IMG/VR virus record: IMGVR_UViG_2563366798_000003
Span: 1-51,413 of that record
Length of the DNA: 51,413 bases
Strand: one strand, 5' to 3'
Source: a virus
Taxonomy: Duplodnaviria; Heunggongvirae; Uroviricota; Caudoviricetes
Shown here: piece after piece, positions 1 through 27,599 of the stretch
Layout of the letters: every line of letters begins with the position of its first letter
Position numbering within the stretch: position 1 is the first letter of the stretch
The notes under the pieces: generated by a model
Told to the model about the DNA's origin: nothing
Seen by the model: the letters and a program-made list of their open reading frames with translations, nothing else
Database searches by the model: none
Made by a program: the position numbers and the translations under genes

Positions 1-1143
1 CTATGCTGTTTTGATATCTACGATAATCCAGTCTTTACCACGATCATCATTGTATCGGTCGGTCATTTTTCTGGATTTATGACCTAACAACTTTTGCGTA
101 TCCAGCCCCTGTTCCCGATATAACCGTTCTGACAGAGATCGCTGCTCATGAAATGTGGGCGCAGTTCCTGGCTCCCATTTTATGCCACATTTTTCCCTGG
201 CCTTTTTAAAAGCCGTTGTAAGAGTATTTGCAGAAACCTGGTCTCCTCTGTTTGCTTGAGAGGTAGTGTGACGGTAATGGACCAGATATTTACTAACAAC
301 AGCATCCCTGCACTGAGATATAACTTCACGAAGGGTAATATTCAGAGCATCGCATTTCAGGCTAAGCGGAATAGCAAGTTTTGAACCGGTTTTTTCCTGA
401 GTAATGTGCAACATGTCGTCCCATATATCAGAGAATTTCAAATTGCAGATATCGCCTAAACGTTGTCCAGTGACAAGAGCAAGTAGCATCCCGCATTTTA
501 AATAGGGCTGCCGTCTGCTTACGCTGTCAAATATTGCCTGCCATTCGGACAGTGATAATCTTTGGCGGTTTACTCGATTTCGCGGTTGTTTTGTTGCCTG
601 CGCTGGGTTAAATCCTGGCGGAACATGTCCTGCGTGTTGTGCTTCTTTGAAGACGTCGATCAACACCATTCTCACGACTTGCGCCATCCTGTTATGACCT
701 TCAGCCTTTACAGCATCAATTATTTCGGCAATATCAAGTGCGGTAATATCCTTGAGGTGTTGCATTCCACAATGCTCACGGAAGAGACGAATGGGTTTGC
801 CTTTTTGCCGATAGGAGTTGGGTCTTAGTTCATTATGTTGCAGCCTGTCCTCCTGGATAGAAATATATTTATCAAGCCATTCTGTCACCGTAATGTCTGA
901 GCGCCTGCCTTTCATTCTTTCCAGACGCTCATTGACGCTTAATATTTGTCGGGTACGTTGTTCAGCAATAATGGTATTTGCTTCAGTAGCAACCTGTTTT
1001 GCTTCATTCTCATCAGTTCCTAAACTATGAAAACGACCGGATAGTGGATGTTTGTATTGCCAATATACCTTTCCGGTTCGCTTATCTAATTTGCAATATA
1101 AATTGGGTATAGAGATTTTGTGAGATCGGGGTCTAGCAGCCAT
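1..1143 (-). CDS. int: tyrosine integrase, lambda Int family
   Basis: 380-aa ORF; C-terminal region (TFHEQRSLSERLY...LLGHKSRKMTDRY) resembles the lambda Int catalytic C-terminus; stop codon at positions 1-3; overlaps upstream xis-like ORF by 11 nt. Confidence 0.9.
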   Translation of the reverse strand: MAARPRSHKISIPNLYCKLDKRTGKVYWQYKHPLSGRFHSLGTDENEAKQVATEANTIIAEQRTRQILSVNERLERMKGRRSDITVTEWLDKYISIQEDRLQHNELRPNSYRQKGKPIRLFREHCGMQHLKDITALDIAEIIDAVKAEGHNRMAQVVRMVLIDVFKEAQHAGHVPPGFNPAQATKQPRNRVNRQRLSLSEWQAIFDSVSRRQPYLKCGMLLALVTGQRLGDICNLKFSDIWDDMLHITQEKTGSKLAIPLSLKCDALNITLREVISQCRDAVVSKYLVHYRHTTSQANRGDQVSANTLTTAFKKAREKCGIKWEPGTAPTFHEQRSLSERLYREQGLDTQKLLGHKSRKMTDRYNDDRGKDWIIVDIKTA

Positions 1144-5079: not shown

Positions 5080-5286
5080 TTAGTGATTCAGGCCGTTGCC
5101 GCGTCCGTCGAGAAAAACTTCCACGAGCAAATCACGGGTATAAGTGCGCTCGATGCCGCGATGCAGATAAAGCCGTCCGCGTAAATTAGCTGATGCAGTC
5201 CAGGTACCATCTTTGTGTTTGACCAGCATTCCTGGCATGACCGCACCGCGATTAACGGTCTGCGTTCCGTAATGTTGATGAACCAT
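5080..5286 (-). CDS. hypothetical protein (68 aa), first well-supported gene downstream of the pL-like region
   Basis: ATG preceded by AGGAG at optimal spacing; position corresponds to the lambda kil/cIII/N early-left block, but no similarity recognised. Confidence 0.45.
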   Translation of the reverse strand: MVHQHYGTQTVNRGAVMPGMLVKHKDGTWTASANLRGRLYLHRGIERTYTRDLLVEVFLDGRGNGLNH

Positions 5287-5762: not shown

Positions 5763-6716
5763 TTATTCGAATGGAAGATCTATTTGCCTTTGAGGATTCA
5801 ACTGTTTTTTTACATGCTCAATTTCGAATATGGTTTTTATGGCATCTCCGATCATATATTGAGTTACTTTTAAATCTACAAGTAACATATCACCTTTAGA
5901 AAAATTTAAGGTGTTGTTATCAATATCGCTGATGAATTTCTGGTCTTTTATTTCAGCCAAAAAGCTACTGGCACCATCAGAAAACCGCCACCGGCTTCCT
6001 TCATTGAAGGAAATATTTTTAATTTGAAGGGCTTTCTCTACTGTGTACTCTGAAATTATTGATTCTGCTGGTAGATTGACTTTGAAATAATGTGCTTCTT
6101 GCTTGTTGATCGTCATGAATGTCAAACCATCATCGACAGTAGAGGCAAAGCTGTCAATGCCTTCCTGCTCTAATGGCTTACTTATAACTTCTTGTAATGA
6201 AGAGCGAAGTTTAATATTTTTATAAAGTTCAATAACGTTACTGTCGTAGATCTCGCTTTCGTCATCAACAAAGACTTCGATGTTGCTATCAGGCAAATTG
6301 TGTAATTTTTTTATTTTCCTTGGACCTATCCATTTTATCAGTTGAATTAGGCCTTTGCATATTTTTTCTTTAGAACCAGGACAGAGTCCAATAAAAGCAA
6401 TCAAATTCGCAGCGGCTGTTGCTGAATCGCCGGATAAAAAATCAACAGCCTGTTTGAACCAAGATGTAGATGAGGCAACCAGATCTATTCCAAATGAGCC
6501 AGCTTTAAATGATGCATTGACTTTTACAGAAACAACAGTCTTGTTTCCGTAGAGAGTTTTACCGGCTTCCTCTAATGCATCTGATAGTGATAGAAGGGCA
6601 GGAGCAAGGTCTCGCACGTTCATTTCATGCGTTTCCAGTGCCGGACCGTCGTATACTATCCTGAACTTCATATCATTGGTTTCCGAATTGTTGCCCGCAT
6701 CCATTATGGCATTCAC
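5763..6716 (-). CDS. hypothetical protein (317 aa) in the lysogenic rex slot between cI and pL
   Basis: Long AT-rich ORF on the cI strand, directly downstream of cI and followed by a terminator; no recognisable domain; start ambiguous (ATG at 6716 or 6704). Confidence 0.75.
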   Translation of the reverse strand: MNAIMDAGNNSETNDMKFRIVYDGPALETHEMNVRDLAPALLSLSDALEEAGKTLYGNKTVVSVKVNASFKAGSFGIDLVASSTSWFKQAVDFLSGDSATAAANLIAFIGLCPGSKEKICKGLIQLIKWIGPRKIKKLHNLPDSNIEVFVDDESEIYDSNVIELYKNIKLRSSLQEVISKPLEQEGIDSFASTVDDGLTFMTINKQEAHYFKVNLPAESIISEYTVEKALQIKNISFNEGSRWRFSDGASSFLAEIKDQKFISDIDNNTLNFSKGDMLLVDLKVTQYMIGDAIKTIFEIEHVKKQLNPQRQIDLPFE

Positions 6717-6777: not shown

Positions 6778-7506
6778 CTACCCATGCTTCCTATACGTCT
6801 GCGGCATGCTCCCAATAACCTTACCGAAGATGAACACCCGGTTCATCTCGTCTTTCTCGATCGGGTCCCAAGGTGAGTAGCTCTTGTTATCAGAGATAAC
6901 CAGCAGCTTATCCTTCATCATTTGCAGACGCTTTACATGGGCTGTGTCGTCGTACAGAAACGCATAGATACCATCACCGTCGAAAGATTTAACCGTGATA
7001 TCAACGAACAGCAGATCACCTGGTTCGATCGTTCCTGACATGCTGTCACCACGCACGTTAATGATGCGGATATTTTCCGCCTTCCTGCCATCGAACATGT
7101 GACGAGCATCGTCAAACGAGTACTCAACCGAGCGTAGAACTTCTACAAACTCACGATTGATGACACCCGGCCCGGCACTGACTTCTATATCAAGAACGTC
7201 AATCTTGAAGTATTTGGAATGGTTGACAGCAGGCTTCCCTGATTGTTGACCGTCATTTCTCATCGGGCCTATGCCTGATGAGAGCCACTCAGTTCGAACA
7301 CCCAATGCATTAGCTATTTCAACAATTTTTGTTGAGCCGCGCGCGTTGCCGCTTGTCAGTCTCCAGATTGTGGGTTGAGCTACGCCAGACGCCTTTGCAA
7401 GAGCGCCTTGAGACATTCCAGATTGTTCCATCGCTAGGTTTAAGCGATCAGCAAGAGTTTCTTTTTTCATAAGTTTTAATTTATACGCTCGCGTATTGAT
7501 GGTCAA
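6778..7506 (-). CDS. cI: CI-type repressor (HTH + S24 LexA-like peptidase domain)
   Basis: 242 aa; N-terminal HTH (MSQGALAKASGVAQPTIWRL), C-terminal S24 signature GDSM and putative Ala-Gly cleavage site; divergent from the Cro-like gene. Confidence 0.9.
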   Translation of the reverse strand: MTINTRAYKLKLMKKETLADRLNLAMEQSGMSQGALAKASGVAQPTIWRLTSGNARGSTKIVEIANALGVRTEWLSSGIGPMRNDGQQSGKPAVNHSKYFKIDVLDIEVSAGPGVINREFVEVLRSVEYSFDDARHMFDGRKAENIRIINVRGDSMSGTIEPGDLLFVDITVKSFDGDGIYAFLYDDTAHVKRLQMMKDKLLVISDNKSYSPWDPIEKDEMNRVFIFGKVIGSMPQTYRKHG

Positions 7507-10741: not shown

Positions 10742-12289
10742 CTACTTGTCTTTTTTAATATGTTCAATCTCATCATTAAGACATTTATCTATTTTTTTTA
10801 TTAACACATTAATTTCTTCGGTGTTTTGGAGTTGAGTTGTCTTAGAAACAAAAACTCGAATAAAGAATTTAACATAGTGATAGGGTTGAAGTACATCGTT
10901 ATACTTACATAAATCATTTATTGTATACTTGCCGCCTGTTTCTTTTTTTATTATTTTAGCTTGACTTGTATCGATATCTTTAAAGTTATCTTCAATCTGA
11001 AAATCAAGAACCCATTCATCTCCTTTTAAATTATCCTCAATGATTTTGTTGATTTTCTTAGATATATTTTGTTTATATTCTTTGTATCTGTTGTCGGAAA
11101 TGTTAACATTAGAAAACGTGTGTTTTTTTTCATATATTTTTTTCCAAACATTTCTATCAACAATATCTTGAATTATAGCTTGAGAATTTTTATCTAATGT
11201 GTTTTTAAGAGTGTTTTCTAAAAACGTTTTGTCTGGGTTTTCACGATAAAAGTGTTTGATGGACTCAATGAGAGTGTTTTTAGATTTTAAAGAGACAACA
11301 TCATCAGTTTTTTTTCTAGAACACGCTTTGTTAAGCATCGCAGATAGTGCACGATTGGTCTTATGAAAATAAACTTGACTATAAAGCCCACTTCTTGCAT
11401 TGGCAAATTCTAGTATTGAATCCATACCACTTTCTTTATATGCCAGGTAAACACTATTTTCAACTTTCACAGGAATAAATGACATTAATAATCGTCCATA
11501 ATCATAAATCCCATATTTAACGCCGGAGAAGTAGCTATCTCTAAGTAGGTAGTCCATTCTGTCCGCATCTATAGGTGAAGATGATATGATTGAACATAAT
11601 AAAGGATATACATTTACTCCCTCAATGTTATTTTTAAAATCATATCTTTTATCAACAATTTTTATAATGCTTTCTGGATTAATAGCCGCTATGTTTTCTT
11701 TATAGACATCGTCGTCATTTGATTTATCTTGGGCTTCATTTTTTAATTCTTCAATAATTTCTTTAATAAAAATACATGATACTTGTTCGTGGGTTAACTT
11801 GTCATTATCACTTAAAGATATAATCTTATCGTATTGTTTATTTCCTTCAGTTTTGCATTTTTCTTTGAAATCTTTTACGGATATTGCAAAACTATCGAAT
11901 TGGTGGGCAAGTGGGCCATGCCCAACATCGTGTAACAATGCTGCAATACGTAACTCCTGTATAAGACTTGAAGGCATTTTTTTTATATCTAAATATAGAT
12001 CAATGCCCATATTTTTTCGGTCATAAATTAATGCATTCAAATTTATATTTTTCAAAATCTCATACGATAAATGCATTACACCGACAGAGTGTTCAAAGCG
12101 AGAGTGCATTGCAGAAGGAAATACTTTATATAGAAACGTGTTCTGCCTGATATCTCGTAGTCGTTGGAATAAAGGATGGTCAATTATCTTTTTTTCTAGC
12201 TTAGTTATTCGAATCACTCCATGTATGGGATCTAAAAACTTCCCCAGAAGTAAGTCTTCAAAGTTCTCAAGTTTGTTTTTGTTTGTCAT
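10742..12289 (-). CDS. HD-domain phosphohydrolase, Dgt/SAMHD1-like putative dNTP triphosphohydrolase
   Basis: 515 aa; motifs H-x-x-H (HSRFEHSVGVMH), HD (LLHDVGHGPLAH) and D-x-D-R-x-D-Y-x-x-R-D (DADRMDYLLRDSYFSG); AAGGAAAG SD; strongly AT-rich, opposite strand to flanking phage genes. Confidence 0.85.
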   Translation of the reverse strand: MTNKNKLENFEDLLLGKFLDPIHGVIRITKLEKKIIDHPLFQRLRDIRQNTFLYKVFPSAMHSRFEHSVGVMHLSYEILKNINLNALIYDRKNMGIDLYLDIKKMPSSLIQELRIAALLHDVGHGPLAHQFDSFAISVKDFKEKCKTEGNKQYDKIISLSDNDKLTHEQVSCIFIKEIIEELKNEAQDKSNDDDVYKENIAAINPESIIKIVDKRYDFKNNIEGVNVYPLLCSIISSSPIDADRMDYLLRDSYFSGVKYGIYDYGRLLMSFIPVKVENSVYLAYKESGMDSILEFANARSGLYSQVYFHKTNRALSAMLNKACSRKKTDDVVSLKSKNTLIESIKHFYRENPDKTFLENTLKNTLDKNSQAIIQDIVDRNVWKKIYEKKHTFSNVNISDNRYKEYKQNISKKINKIIEDNLKGDEWVLDFQIEDNFKDIDTSQAKIIKKETGGKYTINDLCKYNDVLQPYHYVKFFIRVFVSKTTQLQNTEEINVLIKKIDKCLNDEIEHIKKDK

Positions 12290-12648: not shown

Positions 12649-14151
12649 TTAAATTGCATCTGCAAACTCTGTGATTTTTCGCTCAAGTATGATTGATGAG
12701 TTGCTGTTGTCGATTTTTTTATTTTCATGATTACGAATAGCCAATGACTCATTAAAGTCTTTTGCGACTGCTGTCTCAATAAATTCAATTTCTGAATCAG
12801 AGTGTTTTTTAACAGCTTCTTTGATCTCATCCAGAGTAACATAGAAAAACTCTTTTCTACGATTTACAAGATTGACTCTCTTTTTATCGAAGACATCATG
12901 TAGTTTTTTTTCTAATGATGGAGCGTCCTCCGAATAAATCATGGCATGCACATCAAAAATAAAAGGAACAGATGCATCACCAAGCTCATTTACACGGTCT
13001 TGTGGATCAAGACGTCGTGTCATGCCTATTTTATAAACATTCTCCCCAAAAGAACCTATGTTCGAAATAATATAAACATGACCTTGTTTGGTTTGTTGTG
13101 CCATGGATAATGCTCTTTGATGCTTTGATTCAGCCTGCGACAAACTCTGTTCTAGTTCGGCAATGCGATTTTCGAGGCGCTGCTTCATGTCACCAGTAAC
13201 TTTTTCCATTTCCTTTCTTGCAGCTTCAATTGCTTTTTTATAACGGCGCTCTTCTGCCTCTGCGTCTTGCATGGCCTTTTCTATTTCTCGTTGTGCACGC
13301 TCCTCCTCTCTCATTTGTGCCCTTATTTCTGCCTGTTCTTCTTTTTCTTTCTGTTTTTGCTCACGATATTCATGGGTAAGCCACAACTCCTCAAGTTTTT
13401 TATTAAGGTATTTAGTATTTATATATATGTGATTTTGCTCGTTTAGTTTATTTATGGCCTCAAATGCCTTTGTGATGCGTTCTTCCATTTTAGTGATATT
13501 TTTCCACGTGCAATTACTAATTGCAGCATCACATTCATTATTAAATGCTCTAGTAGTTAGCCTAATATTTCTGTCTGTCATTTTTTTACCCTCTGCTCGA
13601 GAGCCTTCAACAGTCCATTGGGTTGTGCAATATACTGCACCAGAGTGGGTTTTATCCCGCAGCATTAATTTCTGTTCATCCCTGATGGATTTTATTTTGT
13701 TTTTAAATTGCTCTGAATCTTCAAAATTAAAATGAGGTTCGTAAAATCCTAGTTCGGCTAGTTCAACATCTTCTGAATAAATAGAAATTTGCTTTACTAG
13801 CTTATCATATATTTCTTTCTTCTCTTTATAAGTTCTTCTTAGTTCTTGGATTTGTTTATTGATACCATCCATTTTTTCAATGGTGTTTGTTAGTTCATTA
13901 TTGGCATTTTCTTTTACTTTTTGGGACTCTTCTTTTATAATGGAGCATTCTTGCTCTGTTTTCTCAATAAGCTTCTTACATTCCTCTTCCACATTAAAAT
14001 AATCTGCAAAGCGAGATTTGTATTCTTCATTTTTTTGATTGCTATCACTTAATTCTAATTGTATTTTTTTGATGCGTTTGATTGCAGCTATATATAGAAC
14101 AAGAACAACCAATAAAAATATGATTGCAAGTAATAGTGGAGTTTGAGTCAT
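12649..14151 (-). CDS. membrane-anchored coiled-coil protein with C-terminal T5orf172/GIY-YIG-like domain
   Basis: 500 aa; N-terminal hydrophobic helix (LLLAIIFLLVVLVLYIAAI), long charged coiled-coil segments, C-terminal GHVYIISN...VYKIGMT...VPFIFDVHAMIY motif; AAGGA SD. Confidence 0.8.
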   Translation of the reverse strand: MTQTPLLLAIIFLLVVLVLYIAAIKRIKKIQLELSDSNQKNEEYKSRFADYFNVEEECKKLIEKTEQECSIIKEESQKVKENANNELTNTIEKMDGINKQIQELRRTYKEKKEIYDKLVKQISIYSEDVELAELGFYEPHFNFEDSEQFKNKIKSIRDEQKLMLRDKTHSGAVYCTTQWTVEGSRAEGKKMTDRNIRLTTRAFNNECDAAISNCTWKNITKMEERITKAFEAINKLNEQNHIYINTKYLNKKLEELWLTHEYREQKQKEKEEQAEIRAQMREEERAQREIEKAMQDAEAEERRYKKAIEAARKEMEKVTGDMKQRLENRIAELEQSLSQAESKHQRALSMAQQTKQGHVYIISNIGSFGENVYKIGMTRRLDPQDRVNELGDASVPFIFDVHAMIYSEDAPSLEKKLHDVFDKKRVNLVNRRKEFFYVTLDEIKEAVKKHSDSEIEFIETAVAKDFNESLAIRNHENKKIDNSNSSIILERKITEFADAI

Positions 14152-16600: not shown

Positions 16601-17125
16601 TTATTGTTTAACCCATAATAATTCATTGACATTGAATCCCAACTTTTGAGCGGTTCGCACATAGTCTGCTTTTACTTTATCTGGAATAGTTGAGGTCCTT
16701 GCCAGAATCCATAGGTATTCTCTGTTCGGACCACTGACAAGAGCATACTTATACTCATCATCCAGTTTGATTACATTATAGCCACCATAGAAGGGGCCAA
16801 AAAACGAAACCTTCAACGCTGCAGTTTTAGTATCTCCAGTAAAGTATGCTTTACCTTCGCTCTCGCTCCATTTATTTTTCGTTGGATCGTATCCACGGTT
16901 AAGTACACGAATCCCTCCGTCGTTCCGTTTTCCATAAGTAGCGCTGACCTGTTCCAGACCACGTTCGAACCGGTTCTCGAGGCGAGCTATTTCATACCAT
17001 TTTCCGAGGTAGCGGTTGGCGTCAAAATTTGTAATCGGCTGCACACCTTTAGGTGGTGTCGGGGTCTTACATGCTATAAGAGTGAAAGAGAGCGCAATGC
17101 CAGTCAACACAGGCCATAACTTCAT
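16601..17125 (-). CDS. lipocalin-family outer-membrane lipoprotein (Blc-like)
   Basis: 174 aa with lipoprotein signal (LSFTLIAC) and lipocalin motif (GKWYEIARLENRFE); moron position between Q and lysis genes. Confidence 0.8.
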   Translation of the reverse strand: MKLWPVLTGIALSFTLIACKTPTPPKGVQPITNFDANRYLGKWYEIARLENRFERGLEQVSATYGKRNDGGIRVLNRGYDPTKNKWSESEGKAYFTGDTKTAALKVSFFGPFYGGYNVIKLDDEYKYALVSGPNREYLWILARTSTIPDKVKADYVRTAQKLGFNVNELLWVKQ

Positions 17126-17317
17126 AATAAATCCTGTACTTTTGATAGTTGAGAGTAAGTATGAAAGATAGATGATTACGACCGATCACTTAAAGAACTT
17201 TCATACTATATTAGGAATAGTCCATAACAGAAAAATTGTCAGTGATGACGCCAGAAAGGCAATTTATTCCGTGCACTACACAGTTTATGTGTTAATGAAT
17301 TAGTCAAGGGGGAGGAT

Positions 17318-18277
17318 ATGATAAAAAAACCTGTGATTGGAATCAGCGGTTGTTTGGCCGGTTCTGCTGTTCGTTTTGATGGTGGTCACAAAAGAGCTGA
17401 CTTTTTAATGGACAAATTAGTGGAATGGGTAACATTCAGACCAGTATGTCCGGAAATGGCTATAGGGCTGCCAGTTCCGCGTCCTGCTCTACGTCTTGTG
17501 CGCTCGACGCAAGGAAATATACGGATGTGTTTCAGCCACGACCAGAATGAGGATGTGACAGAGAGAATGACAGAGTTTAGTCGTTCTTATATGGACAAAT
17601 TAAAGGATGTATCGGGGTTTGTGGTTTGTGCTAAATCTCCCAGCTGTGGCATGGAGCGCGTGCGTGTCTATGATGAAAATGGTAATCGAGGTCGTAAAGA
17701 TGGAGTGGGACTATTTACGAGCACTTTGATGGAAAAGTTTTCCTGGCTACCGGTTGAAGAGGATGGGCGATTACATGATCCAGTGCTTCGTGAGAATTTT
17801 GTTGAAAGAGTTTTTGCTTTGCATGAGCTCAATCACCTTTACAAGGAGAAATTATCAAGAAGAGAGTTATTGGCTTTTCATAGTCGTTATAAGCTTCAGT
17901 TGTTGGCGCATAGTCAGACAGGCTATAAAGATATGGGACCATTTGTGGCTGCAATACACGAGTGGGCGGATCTTGAATCATACTTTGAGGTGTATCGTGA
18001 TAAGCTGATGGCGATTCTCAGAAAACCTGCATCACGTAAAAATCACACGAATGTGCTGATGCATATACAGGGGTATTTTAGTAACTACTTAAGTACACGC
18101 CAGCGTAAAGAGTTGAGCGAGGTTATACTTAACTATCGTTCTGGCACATTACCTCTTCTTGCGCCGTTGACTCTGCTGAAGCATTATCTGGGTGAGTATC
18201 CTAATGATTACTTGCTTACACAGAATTACTTCGATCCCTATCCGGACGAACTGGCTCTAAGACTGATGGTAAATTAA
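17318..18277 (+). CDS. YbgA-like protein (DUF523 + DUF1722 architecture)
   Basis: 319 aa; N-terminus GISGCLAGSAVRFDGGHKR typical of the DUF523 family; GGAGG SD. Confidence 0.65.
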   Translation: MIKKPVIGISGCLAGSAVRFDGGHKRADFLMDKLVEWVTFRPVCPEMAIGLPVPRPALRLVRSTQGNIRMCFSHDQNEDVTERMTEFSRSYMDKLKDVSGFVVCAKSPSCGMERVRVYDENGNRGRKDGVGLFTSTLMEKFSWLPVEEDGRLHDPVLRENFVERVFALHELNHLYKEKLSRRELLAFHSRYKLQLLAHSQTGYKDMGPFVAAIHEWADLESYFEVYRDKLMAILRKPASRKNHTNVLMHIQGYFSNYLSTRQRKELSEVILNYRSGTLPLLAPLTLLKHYLGEYPNDYLLTQNYFDPYPDELALRLMVN

Positions 18278-18619
18278 TTGTATGCGATATCATCCAAAAG
18301 GATGAGTTCCTGCATACAGGATATTTACAATCGTAAAAACTACACTATGATACCCAGAGTGTCAGTTTGTATAAAAACTCTGTTTACGCTGAAGAAACCA
18401 TTGAGATGCAACTTAAATTTGGTAAACATGCCAGTCAAAATATATGATATTATGATTCCACGCAGCTATATATAATATAACAGATTGGTTTAATAATTTG
18501 TCTTTGTGAGTTAAATACATAATTTTATACTTGTGATGCAATGAGATTTTCCTTATTGTTGAACTGGCGAATATTGATTTTCCACCTATACTTACCTGGT
18601 GTAACCCCAATGATATCAG

Positions 18620-19360
18620 GTGGATAATATGCCATACATATGTTCTATCATTTTGGTGTTGAACTCGTTTGATGTCCGAATTGGTAAAGAAGATATTTTG
18701 TTTAAAAAAGGAAGTGCTGTTCTCATTGATTACAATTTAAAAGATTTTTTTTCATCAAATATAGATCATGTAATGATCGTAGATGTTGAAGAGAAAACAG
18801 TTAATGATTTCTTTAAAAGCAACACACTCTCACCTTTTTCTGTAAGAAGGTTTTATCCGGCATACTTGATGGTGGAATGTGAAGATTTTTCATTGTTAAA
18901 GAACTTGATTGCATGCTTGAATTGTGATGGCAGAACTGTGGATTTTGTTAGAAATCAAATATCACTTGCATGTCTTGCTATCTTATCTTCAGAGAAAATA
19001 GTGCAAAGTTTTTTATTTGGATGTCTTAATAGTTTAGGAAGTAAAGTTAAGGCTATTATTCACACGGATATATCTGCAACATGGAGACTTTGTGATATAT
19101 CTTCAAGACTGTATCTGAGTGAAAGTCTGTTAAAAAGAAAATTAAAGCACGAAGGCTTATCATTTAGTAAATTAATTCTTGAAGAGCGAATGGTGATGGC
19201 GGAAAGGTTATTAAGCTACAATTTATATTCTGTTGGAAAAGTTGCTGAGATATGCGGTTATGAAAACACGTCATATTTTGTAAGTGTTTTCAGAAGATAT
19301 TTTGGTGTTCCTCCCCATCAATATTCATCAAGATTTTTTTTAGAAAAAGACATGATGTAA
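18620..19360 (+). CDS. AraC-family transcriptional regulator
   Basis: 246 aa, AT-rich; C-terminal AraC HTH (VGKVAEICGYENTSYFVSVFRRYFGVPPHQY). Confidence 0.8.
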   Translation: MDNMPYICSIILVLNSFDVRIGKEDILFKKGSAVLIDYNLKDFFSSNIDHVMIVDVEEKTVNDFFKSNTLSPFSVRRFYPAYLMVECEDFSLLKNLIACLNCDGRTVDFVRNQISLACLAILSSEKIVQSFLFGCLNSLGSKVKAIIHTDISATWRLCDISSRLYLSESLLKRKLKHEGLSFSKLILEERMVMAERLLSYNLYSVGKVAEICGYENTSYFVSVFRRYFGVPPHQYSSRFFLEKDMM

Positions 19361-23139: not shown

Positions 23140-23371
23140 ATTATCATTTTGCGGGTCCTTTCCGGCGATCCGACAGGTTACGGGGCGGCGACCTCGCGGG
23201 TTTTCGCTATTTATGAAAATTTTCCGGTTTAAGGCGTTTCCGTTCTTCTTCGTCGTAACTTAATGTTTTTATTTAAAATACCCCCTGAAAAGAAAGGAAA
23301 CGACAGGTGCTGAAAACGAACTTTTGGGCCTCTGTCGTTTCCTTTCTCTGTTTTTGTCCGTGGAATGAACA
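23140..23371 (+). other. cos site (cosQ-cosN-cosB) with 12-nt cohesive-end sequence GGGCGGCGACCT at 23183-23194
   Basis: Sequence matches lambda genome termini from memory: ...GCGGGTCCTTTCCGGCGATCCGACAGGTTACG / GGGCGGCGACCTCGCGGGTTTTCGCTATTTATGAAAATTTTCCGGTTTAAGGCG... Confidence 0.85.
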
Positions 23372-23892
23372 ATGGAAGTCAACAAAAAGCAGCTGGCTGA
23401 CATTTTCGGCGCGAGTATCCGTACCATTCAGAACTGGCAGGAGCAGGGAATGCCCGTTCTGCGGGGGGGGGGGCAAGGGTAATGAGGTGCTTTATGACTC
23501 TGCCGCCGCCATAAAATGGTATGCCGAAAGGGATGCTGAAATTGAGAACGAAAAGCTGCGCCGGGAAGTTGAAGAACTGCGGCAGGCCAGCGAGACAGAT
23601 CTCCAGCCAGGGACTATTGAGTACGAACGTCATCGACTTACGCGTGCGCAGGCCGACGCACAGGAGCTGAAAAATGCCAGAGACTCCGCTGAGGTGGTGG
23701 AAACCGCATTCTGTACTTTCGTGCTGTCGCGGATCGCAGGTGAAATTGCCAGTATTCTCGACGGGATCCCCCTGTCGGTGCAGCGGCGTTTTCCTGAACT
23801 GGAAAACCGACATGTTGATTTCCTGAAACGGGATATCATCAAAGCCATGAACAAAGCAGCCGCGCTGGATGAACTGATACCGGGGTTGCTGA

Positions 23893-23918
<26 letters not shown>
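23372..23918 (+). pseudogene. nu1: terminase small subunit Nu1, frame broken by an 11-G homopolymer (apparent +1 insertion)
   Basis: ATG 23372 reads MEVNKKQLADIFGASIRTIQNWQEQGMPVLRGGG then stops at 23480-23482; the lambda-like remainder (KGNEVLYDSAA...EYIEQSG) continues in the +1 frame; G-run at 23463-23473. Confidence 0.75.

Positions 23919-27599
<3,681 letters not shown>

What the first reader, a model, noticed from the sequence alone, without database searches (positions are those of the whole stretch)
23463..23473. 11-G homopolymer breaks the reading frame of terminase small subunit nu1
From the ATG at 23372 the Nu1 N-terminus (MEVNKKQLADIFGASIRTIQNWQEQGMPVLRGGG) reads into a run of 11 G and stops at 23480. 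The rest of Nu1 continues perfectly in the +1 frame. Lambda has a mixed CGAGGCGGTGGC sequence here, so one G fewer would restore an intact gene. This is either a homopolymer sequencing error, a real inactivating mutation that would cripple packaging, or a slippage-prone tract.
Basis: seen in the sequence. Interest (0 to 1): 0.6.

Follow-up and report, generated by a model that had tools for sequence, protein, structure and literature searches.

The report
Variable poly-G tract splitting prophage nu1
A run of 11 G really does break the small-terminase gene (nu1) of an otherwise intact lambda-like prophage. The same prophage in other public assemblies carries 9, 10 (intact) or 11 G, so this is a slippage-prone tract caught out of frame, an ordinary kind of lesion at an unreported site.

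Summary
Window 23463-23473 is G11, the only homopolymer longer than 8 nt in the window. nu1 reads from ATG 23372 to TAA 23480-82 (36 aa), and the rest of Nu1 follows in the +1 frame to 23918. Deleting one G gives a 181-aa Nu1 identical to a protein seen on at least 1000 public contigs.

The tract is rare. Other nu1 alleles encode R-G-G-G with mixed codons (GAGGCGGTGG, GGGGTGGTGG). No G9-G12 allele occurs at 5,202 nu1 sites in 5,426 complete E. coli genomes or in 50,697 phage records.

The same prophage lineage (0-3 SNPs over 5-20 kb) recurs in at least 13 other assemblies, with G10 (5), G11 (7 or more, including GenBank Escherichia sp. KTE11) and G9 (1). Both alleles of a flanking SNP (27387 G/C) carry both G10 and G11. 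No other indel separates these copies. So tract length changes recurrently and far faster than point mutation.

Best reading: a real hypermutable mononucleotide tract, with G10 intact and the window a +1 OFF allele that abolishes cos-specific packaging unless it reverts, is complemented or is leakily decoded. A homopolymer miscall cannot be excluded without reads. A prfB-like +1 frameshift context is noted but speculative. Interest is modest.

The parts
23463..23473 (+). G11 mononucleotide tract. It covers the last two bases of the R31 codon and the codons for G32-G34 of Nu1. G10 is in frame; G9 and G11 are out of frame.
   Evidence: unique; 0/100 shuffles. Sibling assemblies carry G9, G10 or G11.
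23372..23482 (+). nu1 5' fragment. It encodes 36 aa: Nu1 residues 1-34 (helix-turn-helix and the first strand of the wing) plus Q-G, then TAA.
   Evidence: Pfam PF07471 positions 1-36, E 3.5e-18. PDB 1J9I/6HN7 align to residues 1-68 and 1-98 of the repaired protein.
23475..23918 (+). nu1 3' part in the +1 frame. It holds Nu1 codons K35-G181 and the stop, covering the wing tip, helix alpha3 and dimer interface, the oligomerisation domain and the TerL-binding C-terminus. Gene callers start it at GTG 23487 (143 aa).
   Evidence: Pfam PF07471 positions 40-164, E 2.9e-73. Domain map from PMC9026076.
23307..23918 (+). 203-aa ORF (GTG start inside cosB, in the +1 frame) that runs through the tract into the Nu1 C-terminal part. 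It is deposited in GenBank as 'terminase small subunit [Escherichia sp. KTE11]' (ELC20358.1). This is an annotation artefact of the G11 allele and lacks the DNA-binding helix-turn-helix.
   Evidence: P0110 is identical to this ORF. It is carried by 5 contigs.
23474..23482 (+). 0-frame codons CAA GGG TAA immediately after the tract. In the G11 allele only, the layout is a G-run (anti-SD complementary), a 3-nt spacer, GGG and then a stop. This has the form of the prfB +1 frameshift cassette, and a +1 slip here would give full-length Nu1 with K35Q. It is speculative.
   Evidence: Sequence. Duplex energy with the 16S 3' end is -10.9 kcal/mol against -10.7 for prfB, but lambda's mixed sequence gives -11.8, so this is not specific.
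23893..25818 (+). terL (gpA homologue), 641 aa and intact, with a GTG start that overlaps the nu1 3' end by 26 nt as in lambda.
   Evidence: Pfam GpA_ATPase and GpA_nuclease in the gene table. The exact protein is listed in 54 blocks of public assemblies.
23183..23194 (+). cosN 12-nt cohesive-end sequence GGGCGGCGACCT. The cos region is intact upstream of nu1.
   Evidence: The identity of the lambda cohesive-end sequence is from established knowledge.

Best explanation
A rare sub-lineage of a DLP12-type lambdoid prophage has converted the R-G-G-G codons of the Nu1 wing (CGG GGT GGT GGC in its nearest relatives) into an uninterrupted G10 run by two synonymous T-to-G changes. This is inferred from the allele comparison. 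A G10 run is long enough to misalign during DNA replication, so the tract gains and loses single G's much faster than point mutations accumulate. G10 encodes intact Nu1. The window carries a +1 slip (G11). That allele ends Nu1 after residue 34 (+QG) and leaves residues 35-181 out of frame. Those residues hold the wing tip K35, helix alpha3 and the dimer interface, the oligomerisation domain and the TerL-binding tail. The 36-aa product cannot form the winged-helix dimer or recruit TerL. A lysogen with this allele should therefore still be inducible and lyse, but make few cos-packaged virions. Packaging could be restored in four ways: the tract slips back to G10 during lytic replication, another resident lambdoid prophage supplies its near-identical Nu1, RNA polymerase slips on the run, or the ribosome slips on it. 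Shown here: the tract, the frame break, the intact G10 siblings, the recurrent length changes and the rarity of the allele. Inferred: that the length differences are biological rather than technical, and all phenotypic consequences.
For: 1. Anatomy of the break.
2. The tract is a derived rare allele. Of 122 IMG/VR sites, 116 are GAGGCGGTGG, 5 are GGGGTGGTGG and 1 is GGGGTGGAGG. L152 and L153 have GAGGTGGCGG. The best match to a 91-nt G11 probe in 5,426 complete E. coli genomes (5,202 sites) is 96.7%, which corresponds to GGGGTGGTGG. No phage record reaches 99% identity to the probe, and the best listed is 94.5%.
3. The same prophage occurs elsewhere with different tract lengths. G10 is in L149, L151, L154, L155 and L157. 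G11 is in L150, L156, L158, L159, L161 and L162. G9 is in L160. The G11-specific 203-aa ORF P0110 is on 5 contigs, including KTE11 and GCA_902385815.1, and the variant P0121 is on another.
4. Length changes are recurrent. L151 (G10) has 0 mismatches to the window over 7.9 kb. SNP 27387-C occurs with G10 (L149, L154, L157) and with G11 (L158). SNP 27387-G occurs with G11 (window, L156, L159, L161) and with G10 (L151, L155).
5. No other indel separates these copies over 5-20 kb, although A/T runs of 7-8 nt are present. General homopolymer noise therefore does not explain the difference.
6. Five IMG/VR contigs call GGGGTGGTGG correctly.
7. The rest of the prophage looks intact: int, recombination genes, repressor, O, P, Q, lysis genes, cos, terL, portal, head, tail, J, lom and stf.
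8. Function of the lost parts: the wing is residues 31-39, K35 makes a minor-groove contact, the dimer interface uses residues 43/47/51, and the C-terminus binds TerL (PMC9026076).
Against: No reads were available, so tract length in any single assembly rests on that assembler's consensus. Illumina chemistry misbehaves on G tracts (the 'G's end' effect in PMC9187656). Two Logan contigs start 5 nt before the run, which shows the site is hard to assemble. Recurrent miscalling would produce the same homoplasy as recurrent mutation. The lineage is absent from complete genomes (best 98.8% identity over 4 kb). I could therefore make no comparison with a finished (complete-genome) copy of this prophage. 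The tract is absent from nearly all nu1 alleles, and only G9-G11 were seen. The products expected from G7, G8, G12, G13 and G14 are not in the 15-billion-protein collection. Nothing therefore indicates that the tract is selected as a switch.
Confidence: 0.62

Rival explanations
1. Homopolymer length miscall. The prophage in the source strain really has G10 and an intact nu1, and the extra G comes from sequencing or consensus calling at a difficult poly-G site.
For: Poly-G tracts are a documented trouble spot for Illumina sequencing and PCR (PMC9187656). Two Logan contigs break at the run. G10 siblings are identical in flanking sequence (L151). The repaired protein is a very common Nu1 allele (at least 1000 contigs).
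Against: G11 recurs in at least 5 contigs carrying the 203-aa ORF, from different projects (KTE11, GCA_902385815.1, the ENA metagenome ERZ27305064 and others), and in at least 4 Logan assemblies. About half of all sampled copies would then have to be wrong. No other homopolymer indel is seen in 5-20 kb of comparison. One copy has G9.
Confidence: 0.28
2. Recoding. The G11 allele is expressed as functional Nu1. This could happen by RNA-polymerase slippage on the run, by a +1 ribosomal slip within the GGG GGG GGG codons (giving the wild-type protein), or by a slip at GGG-UAA three nucleotides after the SD-like run (a prfB-like cassette giving Nu1 K35Q). The frameshift would then lower Nu1 dosage rather than abolish it.
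For: The form is right: a run of 11 identical bases, and a G-run, CAA, GGG, UAA layout with the same 3-nt spacing as prfB's AGGGGG-UAU-CUU-UGA. The prfB sequence and spacing are from established knowledge. The SD-like stimulator and stop-codon stall are described in PMC6815119, and GG_GGG as the RF2 SD-like element in PMC5009743. The anti-SD duplex is -10.9 kcal/mol against -10.7 for prfB. There is a precedent for low-level compensatory frameshifting on a G-run indel in herpesvirus thymidine kinase (PMC5009743). Terminase may be needed only in small amounts (inference).
Against: The configuration is not conserved. The overwhelming majority of homologues, and the sibling G10 copies, have an uninterrupted ORF. 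Lambda's mixed sequence pairs with the anti-SD as well or better. The stop is UAA followed by U, which from memory is a strong terminator context, unlike prfB's UGA-C. A GGG-to-GGU re-pairing has a wobble mismatch. Transcriptional slippage in bacteria is documented for A/T runs (PMC1088944). I found no data for G runs in E. coli. K35 is the wing-tip DNA contact, and only K35R is reported as tolerated.
Confidence: 0.06
3. The whole poly-G run is a systematic substitution artefact. Under this view the true sequence is GGGGTGGTGG, and GGT is miscalled as GGG on Illumina.
For: The nearest real allele differs from G10 only by two T-to-G changes, each following G's. T-to-G after GG is a known Illumina sequence-specific error (from memory, not checked here). 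No complete genome carries the tract.
Against: Substitution errors do not create length variants of 9, 10 and 11. No half-converted intermediate (one T left) was seen anywhere. Five IMG/VR contigs report GGGGTGGTGG correctly. The tract is confined to one SNP-defined prophage lineage that is simply absent from complete genomes (best 98.8%). That fits inheritance, not chemistry.
Confidence: 0.03

Closest known systems
Bacteriophage lambda Nu1 (TerS; Pfam PF07471 Phage_Nu1; PDB 1J9I, 6HN7)
   Same: The gene sits directly after cos and overlaps the terL GTG start by 26 nt. The repaired product is 181 aa. It differs from lambda Nu1 at 3 residues when compared with the lambda sequence as I recall it. 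The PDB chain 6HN7_B confirms the two differences within residues 1-98, and position 132 rests on memory. The RGGGKG wing motif is the same.
   Different: The wing glycines are encoded by an uninterrupted G run instead of GGC GGT GGC. In the window the run is one base too long, so the gene is split into 36-aa and 143-aa pieces.
Simple-sequence contingency loci (phase-variable poly-G/C tracts of Neisseria, Campylobacter, Bordetella; Bifidobacterium breve G-tract pilus switch, PMC9187656)
   Same: It is a coding-region mononucleotide G tract of 9-11 nt. Its length differs by single bases between near-identical genomes, independently of flanking SNPs, and this toggles the reading frame.
   Different: It is in an E. 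coli prophage morphogenesis gene, not a surface or restriction-modification gene. The tract is a rare allele rather than a conserved feature of the gene. No within-culture switching and no benefit of the OFF state is shown.
Herpes simplex virus thymidine kinase G-run indels with low-level compensatory frameshifting ('savior indel', reviewed in PMC5009743)
   Same: A one-base gain or loss in a run of G's in a viral gene. Residual product by slippage on the same run is a realistic possibility.
   Different: There, the indel is selected by drug pressure and the leaky expression has been measured. Here neither selection nor leakiness is known.
prfB (RF2) programmed +1 ribosomal frameshift
   Same: In the G11 allele the layout is a G-rich anti-SD-complementary element, a 3-nt spacer, a P-site codon and a 0-frame stop. 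A +1 slip would restore the downstream frame.
   Different: It is not conserved and arises only as a by-product of the extra G. The slip codon is GGG (to GGU) rather than CUU (to UUU). The stop is UAA-U rather than the RF2-specific UGA-C. There is no autoregulatory logic.
DLP12 defective prophage of E. coli K-12 (nohD, the Nu1 homologue)
   Same: The neighbourhood is the same: ybcV/ybcW/ylcI-type genes upstream of nu1 in the closest E. coli matches, which are annotated nohD, and appY-ompT downstream of the tail genes. The packaging gene is the damaged one.
   Different: The window's prophage is otherwise full length, about 47 kb from int to the tail-fibre genes. Its lesion is a single reversible base rather than large deletions. 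The deletions in DLP12 are from memory.

Membership tests
Lambda-type small terminase Nu1 (PF07471) | [quoted passage not shown] | tested here: met
   The 5' piece matches profile positions 1-36 (E 3.5e-18) and the 3' piece matches 40-164 (E 2.9e-73). The repaired protein aligns to PDB 6HN7_B and 1J9I.
Lambda-type small terminase Nu1 (PF07471) | Position immediately downstream of cos and upstream of, and overlapping, terL (gpA) | tested here: met
   cosN is at 23183-23194, nu1 starts at 23372, and terL at 23893-25818 overlaps the nu1 end.
Lambda-type small terminase Nu1 (PF07471) | Single uninterrupted ORF of about 181 aa joining the DNA-binding and TerL-binding domains | tested here: not met
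   The window has a stop after 36 codons, and the rest is in the +1 frame. This is a frameshifted allele of a family member, not an intact member. Siblings with G10 meet the criterion.
Simple-sequence contingency locus (phase-variable gene) | Mononucleotide tract of about 8 nt or more inside the coding region, whose length sets the frame | tested here: met
   G11 lies at codons 31-34. G10 gives 181 aa, while G9 and G11 give 46 and 36 aa.
Simple-sequence contingency locus (phase-variable gene) | Tract-length polymorphism among otherwise near-identical genomes, not tracking flanking SNPs | tested here: met
   G9, G10 and G11 occur on copies with 0-3 SNPs per 5-20 kb. Both alleles of SNP 27387 carry G10 and G11. 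Caveat: the lengths are assembly consensus calls, not reads.
Simple-sequence contingency locus (phase-variable gene) | Tract conserved in the gene across strains or lineages (evidence of selection for mutability) | tested here: not met
   Among complete E. coli genomes, 0 of 5,202 sites have it. No phage record has it. In IMG/VR, 116 + 5 + 1 sites have mixed codons, and a separate scan for 8 or more G found 1 contig with the tract.
Simple-sequence contingency locus (phase-variable gene) | Measured reversible ON/OFF switching within a clonal culture, with a phenotype | not testable with these tools
   This needs reads or UMI amplicons, fluctuation tests and phage titres.
Programmed +1 ribosomal frameshift (prfB type) | Slip-prone P-site codon followed by a 0-frame stop, with an SD-like element about 3 nt upstream | tested here: inconclusive
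   The form is present: G-run, CAA, GGG, UAA, with an anti-SD duplex of -10.9 kcal/mol against -10.7 for prfB. However, lambda's intact sequence scores -11.8, and GGG-to-GGU re-pairing is imperfect.
Programmed +1 ribosomal frameshift (prfB type) | Frameshift configuration conserved among homologues | tested here: not met
   Homologues have one continuous ORF. Siblings of the same prophage have G10.
Programmed transcriptional slippage | Run of 9 or more identical bases, A or T in the documented bacterial cases, conserved with the out-of-frame arrangement | tested here: not met
   The run length is met (11), but the base is G and the arrangement is not conserved. The literature retrieved covers A/T runs (PMC1088944).

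The most novel reading that the evidence does not exclude
The poly-G run is a functional contingency switch in a temperate phage's packaging gene. Reversible G9/G10/G11 slippage would toggle the prophage between virion-producing and non-producing states. The OFF (G11) state might be kept leaky by slippage on the run or by a prfB-like +1 shift at GGG-UAA. Lysogen populations would then hedge between phage release and abortive induction. A phase-variable terminase has, to my knowledge, not been described for E. coli phages, and two literature searches found nothing.
Probability: 0.08. Interest if true: 0.65.

Novelty: new member of a known kind. Interest (0 to 1): 0.3.

Why it matters
In practice, the site is a trap for annotation. 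GenBank already holds a 203-aa 'terminase small subunit' (ELC20358.1, Escherichia sp. KTE11). That protein is the frameshifted ORF with a spurious N-terminus and no DNA-binding domain. Prophage-completeness tools would score this element as intact or defective depending on one base.

In biology, it is a clean natural example of two synonymous changes creating a mutational hot spot in an essential phage gene. The first visible step of prophage decay, or a reversible OFF state, then falls exactly there. If the length variation is confirmed by reads, the strains listed give a ready-made system. They could be used to measure homopolymer slippage in E. coli prophages, and to ask how much Nu1 a lambda-like phage really needs. 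If it is a miscall, the site is a useful benchmark for poly-G consensus errors in short-read assemblies.

Tried and rejected
1. The JGI metagenome scan for left flank plus 8 or more G gave 3 hits. All are unrelated sequences, i.e. chance 19-mers.

2. The GTDB species-representative scan gave only 10-base mixed alleles. Many of these sit on small or roughly 48-kb contigs in assemblies of unrelated bacteria, which looks like lambda DNA contamination.

3. A general homopolymer-error platform as the cause was rejected. No other indel occurs in up to 20.6 kb of comparison with siblings, and all late genes have lambda-like lengths.

4. A substitution artefact (GGT read as GGG) was rejected as the main explanation; see the rival explanations.

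5. Exact look-ups of the products expected from G7, G8, G9, G12, G13 and G14 found none in the collection. This is weak evidence, because short ORFs are rarely called. The G9 contig L160 exists, yet its 46-aa product is not on record.

6. Homologues of 180-183 aa were checked for RGGKG or RGGGGKG (in-frame tract changes). None have them; their length differences lie elsewhere.

7. Curran 1993 (PMC309422), on P-site codon effects at the RF2 site, is not held. Only 2,055 characters of the prfB evolution preprint are held, and they contained none of the search terms. The slipperiness of GGG-U at a stop could therefore not be documented.

8. Literature searches for a nu1 or terminase homopolymer, or for phase variation in prophage genes, found no prior report of this site.

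9. No tRNA genes are in the window.

Full report
**What is in the sequence**

Window 23463-23473 is an uninterrupted run of 11 G. It is the only homopolymer longer than 8 nt in the 51.4-kb window. The next longest G run is 7 nt. None of 100 dinucleotide-preserving shuffles contains a G11.

The run lies inside nu1. The ORF from ATG 23372 encodes MEVNKKQLADIFGASIRTIQNWQEQGMPVLRGGGQG and stops at TAA 23480-82. The +1 frame carries the rest of Nu1 (K35 to G181) up to 23918.

Pfam Phage_Nu1 matches profile positions 1-36 on the first piece and 40-164 on the second. Deleting one G gives a 181-aa protein. That exact sequence is on at least 1000 public contigs (P0122). It aligns over residues 1-98 with the solved lambda TerS fragment 6HN7_B.

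**Context**

The window is a full-length lambdoid prophage. It carries:
- an integrase at 1-1143 (minus strand), a YqaJ exonuclease and RecT;
- an S24/HTH repressor, and the replication genes O and P;
- nin-region genes, Q, and the holin, lysozyme and Rz lysis genes;
- cos, with the cosN 12-mer at 23183-23194, then nu1 and terL (641 aa, 23893-25818);
- W, portal, protease, D, E, FI, FII, Z, U, V, G, T, H, M, L, K, I, J, lom and stf.

These are followed by appY-like and ompT genes. The closest E. coli matches annotate the nu1 homologue as nohD, with ybcV, ybcW and ylcI upstream. This is therefore the DLP12-type neighbourhood. The late genes have lambda-like lengths. nu1 is the only visibly broken gene in the packaging and morphogenesis operon.

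**The tract is a rare, derived allele**

Other nu1 genes encode the same R-G-G-G with mixed codons:
- 116 of 122 IMG/VR sites have GAGGCGGTGG (the lambda sequence), 5 have GGGGTGGTGG and 1 has GGGGTGGAGG.
- Two further loci have GAGGTGGCGG.
- A 91-nt probe spanning the G11 run found 5,202 sites in 5,426 complete E. coli genomes. The best identity was 96.7%, which corresponds to GGGGTGGTGG with identical flanks. A G9-G12 allele would score 97.8-100%.
- No record in 50,697 phage genomes carries the tract.

The protein motif RGGGKG is invariant even in homologues of 78-90% identity. The G10 run differs from GGGGTGGTGG by two synonymous T-to-G changes.

**The same prophage elsewhere carries 9, 10 or 11 G**

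One IMG/VR contig (L149) matches the window over 12.1 kb with 3 mismatches and has G10. I looked up the window's exact TerL and the frameshift-specific ORFs in public assemblies. This returned more copies of the same lineage:

| Tract | Copies |
|---|---|
| G10 | L149, L151 (GCA_000408525.1), L154 (GCA_002965925.2), L155 (ENA metagenome), L157 (SRR6413562) |
| G11 | L150, L156 (SRR640000; the contig is seen in 4 samples), L158, L159, L161 (GCA_902385815.1), L162 (ENA metagenome) |
| G9 | L160 (SRR25724084) |

L161 is 100% identical to the window over 20.6 kb. The 203-aa ORF that the G11 allele creates (23307-23918) is on record as ELC20358.1, 'terminase small subunit [Escherichia sp. KTE11]'. 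It lies on 5 contigs of different sizes, and a one-residue variant (P0121) lies on another.

G11 is therefore reproducible across projects and assemblers, and so is G10.

**Tract length does not follow the flanking SNPs**

- L151 (G10) has no mismatch to the window (G11) in 7.9 kb.
- The only shared SNP in the set is 27387 G/C. The C allele occurs with G10 (L149, L154, L157) and with G11 (L158).
- The G allele occurs with G11 (window, L156, L159, L161) and with G10 (L151, L155).

At least two independent length changes, or a recombination event, are needed within a set of sequences that differ by 0-3 substitutions over 5-20 kb. No other indel separates these copies, although the compared stretch contains A/T runs of 7-8 nt. 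The site is therefore specifically unstable, either in the cell or in the sequencer.

**Biological or technical?**

Arguments for a technical origin:
- Poly-G tracts disturb Illumina sequencing and PCR (PMC9187656).
- Two Logan contigs begin 5 nt before the run.
- The lineage is absent from complete genomes. The best identity over 4 kb is 98.8%. I could therefore make no comparison with a finished copy.

Arguments for a biological origin:
- Roughly half of the sampled copies would have to be wrong.
- G11 recurs in at least five isolate or metagenome assemblies and at least four Logan assemblies.
- One copy has G9.
- IMG/VR contigs call the neighbouring allele GGGGTGGTGG without trouble.
- Consensus calling needs a majority of reads. 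I do not expect stutter on a 10-11 nt run to reach a majority. That is my own judgement and was not tested here.

I put about 0.7 on the polymorphism being real. I put about 0.6-0.65 on the window's G11 being genuine and inactivating. A pure substitution artefact that creates the run from GGGGTGGTGG is unlikely. It cannot explain the length variants, and no half-converted intermediate was seen.

**Consequence of G11**

According to the Feiss-laboratory review (PMC9026076), the Nu1 recognition helix is residues 17-24 and the wing is residues 31-39. K35 at the wing tip contacts the minor groove. The DNA-binding-domain dimer uses residues 11-13 against 43, 47 and 51. The central part oligomerises, and the C-terminal ~40 residues are implicated in TerL binding.

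The 36-aa product stops inside the wing and has none of the later elements. The 143-aa or 203-aa downstream ORFs lack the helix-turn-helix. By inference, a G11 prophage cannot assemble terminase at cosB, and would lyse on induction with few packaged genomes.

Four escape routes can be imagined:
1. The tract slips back to G10 among the many genome copies made during lytic replication. One revertant copy could package its G11 siblings in trans.
2. Another lambdoid prophage supplies Nu1. E. coli genomes with a nu1 homologue have a median of 2 such sites, and the repaired protein is a very common allele.
3. RNA polymerase slips on the run.
4. The ribosome makes a +1 slip.

On the fourth route, a slip within GGG GGG GGG would give the wild-type protein. 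The G11 allele also happens to place a G-run, CAA, GGG and UAA in the layout of the prfB cassette: an SD-like element, a 3-nt spacer, the P-site codon and a stop. The anti-SD duplex is -10.9 kcal/mol, against -10.7 for prfB. A slip there would give Nu1 K35Q.

I treat this as a curiosity for four reasons:
- The arrangement is not conserved.
- Lambda's intact sequence pairs with the anti-SD just as well.
- The stop context is strong (from memory).
- The re-pairing is imperfect.

The nearest precedent for leaky rescue of a G-run indel is herpesvirus thymidine kinase (PMC5009743).

**Comparison with known systems**

The gene is a frameshifted allele of lambda-type Nu1 (PF07471). It meets the sequence and position criteria and fails the intact-ORF criterion.

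The tract behaves like a simple-sequence contingency locus in form: a coding poly-G, single-base length polymorphism, and homoplasy. It fails the criterion that matters for calling it a selected switch, because it is absent from almost all alleles of the gene. Switching within a culture could not be tested. It is not a programmed frameshift or slippage site by the conservation criterion.

Two literature searches found no report of a homopolymer or phase-variable site in nu1 or a lambdoid terminase.

**Verdict**

This is a real and correctly read feature: a rare poly-G allele of nu1, caught one base out of frame. It most likely reflects replication slippage at a self-made hot spot in a prophage that is otherwise intact. 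It is an ordinary mechanism in a new place. Its practical relevance is for annotation, and there is a small chance of something more interesting, namely a reversible or leaky packaging switch.

Interest is 0.3. Novelty: new member of a known kind.

Noticed in passing
window 12649-14151 (-) and 10742-12289 (-): A 500-aa protein matches the PD-Lambda-1 defence model (padloc E 5e-198) and Pfam DUF4041 (labelled SNIPE in the precomputed Pfam list) plus T5orf172/MUG113. Next to it is a 515-aa HD-domain protein. Both sit in a 30-36% GC island between replication gene P and the nin genes. This looks like an anti-phage moron carried by the prophage.
   Followed up: partly
window 5763-6716 (-): A 317-aa ORF with no Pfam hit matches the candidate defence family PDC-S42 (E 3.4e-86). 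It lies immediately next to the cI-like repressor at 6778-7506.
   Followed up: partly
window 23307-23918 (+); GenBank ELC20358.1: The G11 allele creates a 203-aa ORF with a spurious 56-residue N-terminus read from inside cosB. It has been deposited as 'terminase small subunit [Escherichia sp. KTE11]'. This is a propagated mis-annotation of a frameshifted gene.
   Followed up: yes
loci L123-L148: The lambda-type nu1 sequence turns up in assemblies of unrelated bacteria (Kitasatospora, Bradyrhizobium, Paenibacillus, Oceanobacillus, Shewanella, Pseudomonas and others). It appears on tiny contigs or on contigs of about 48.4-48.5 kb, often at low coverage. This looks like lambda DNA contamination; a control-DNA or spike-in origin is my guess.
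   Followed up: no
hits H130-H135; proteins P0012, P0015 and others: Many E. coli genomes carry a 234-256-aa protein annotated 'Ail/Lom family outer membrane beta-barrel protein' that also contains the Phage_Nu1 domain. This appears to be a lom-nu1 fusion, perhaps from a deletion across the circularly permuted prophage junction in defective lambdoids (inference).
   Followed up: no
L158 and L159, positions 1-20 (window 23458 onward): Two Logan contigs from different runs start 5 nt upstream of the G run. Three others (L156, L157, L160) all start at window 23363, just before the nu1 ATG. These are assembly break points, either at the tract or at sequence shared between co-resident lambdoid prophages.
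   Followed up: partly
window 16601-19360: Cargo genes lie between the Q antiterminator and the lysis cassette, the position where Stx phages carry stx (the stx position is from memory). They are a lipocalin (minus strand), a DUF1722/2-thiouracil-desulfurase-like protein and an AraC-family regulator, in a region of about 35-43% GC (gene table).
   Followed up: no
proteins P0142, P0137, P0150, P0108: Other nu1 alleles in public data are also broken within a few codons of the RGGGKG motif. One is RGGGKG followed by MRCFMTLPPS in the E. coli O55:H7 RM12579 DLP12 prophage. Another is a 203-aa form that enters the Nu1 frame just before LRGGGKG. The region around codons 28-37 may be a recurrent site of lesions or of assembly breaks, even without the poly-G run.
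   Followed up: no
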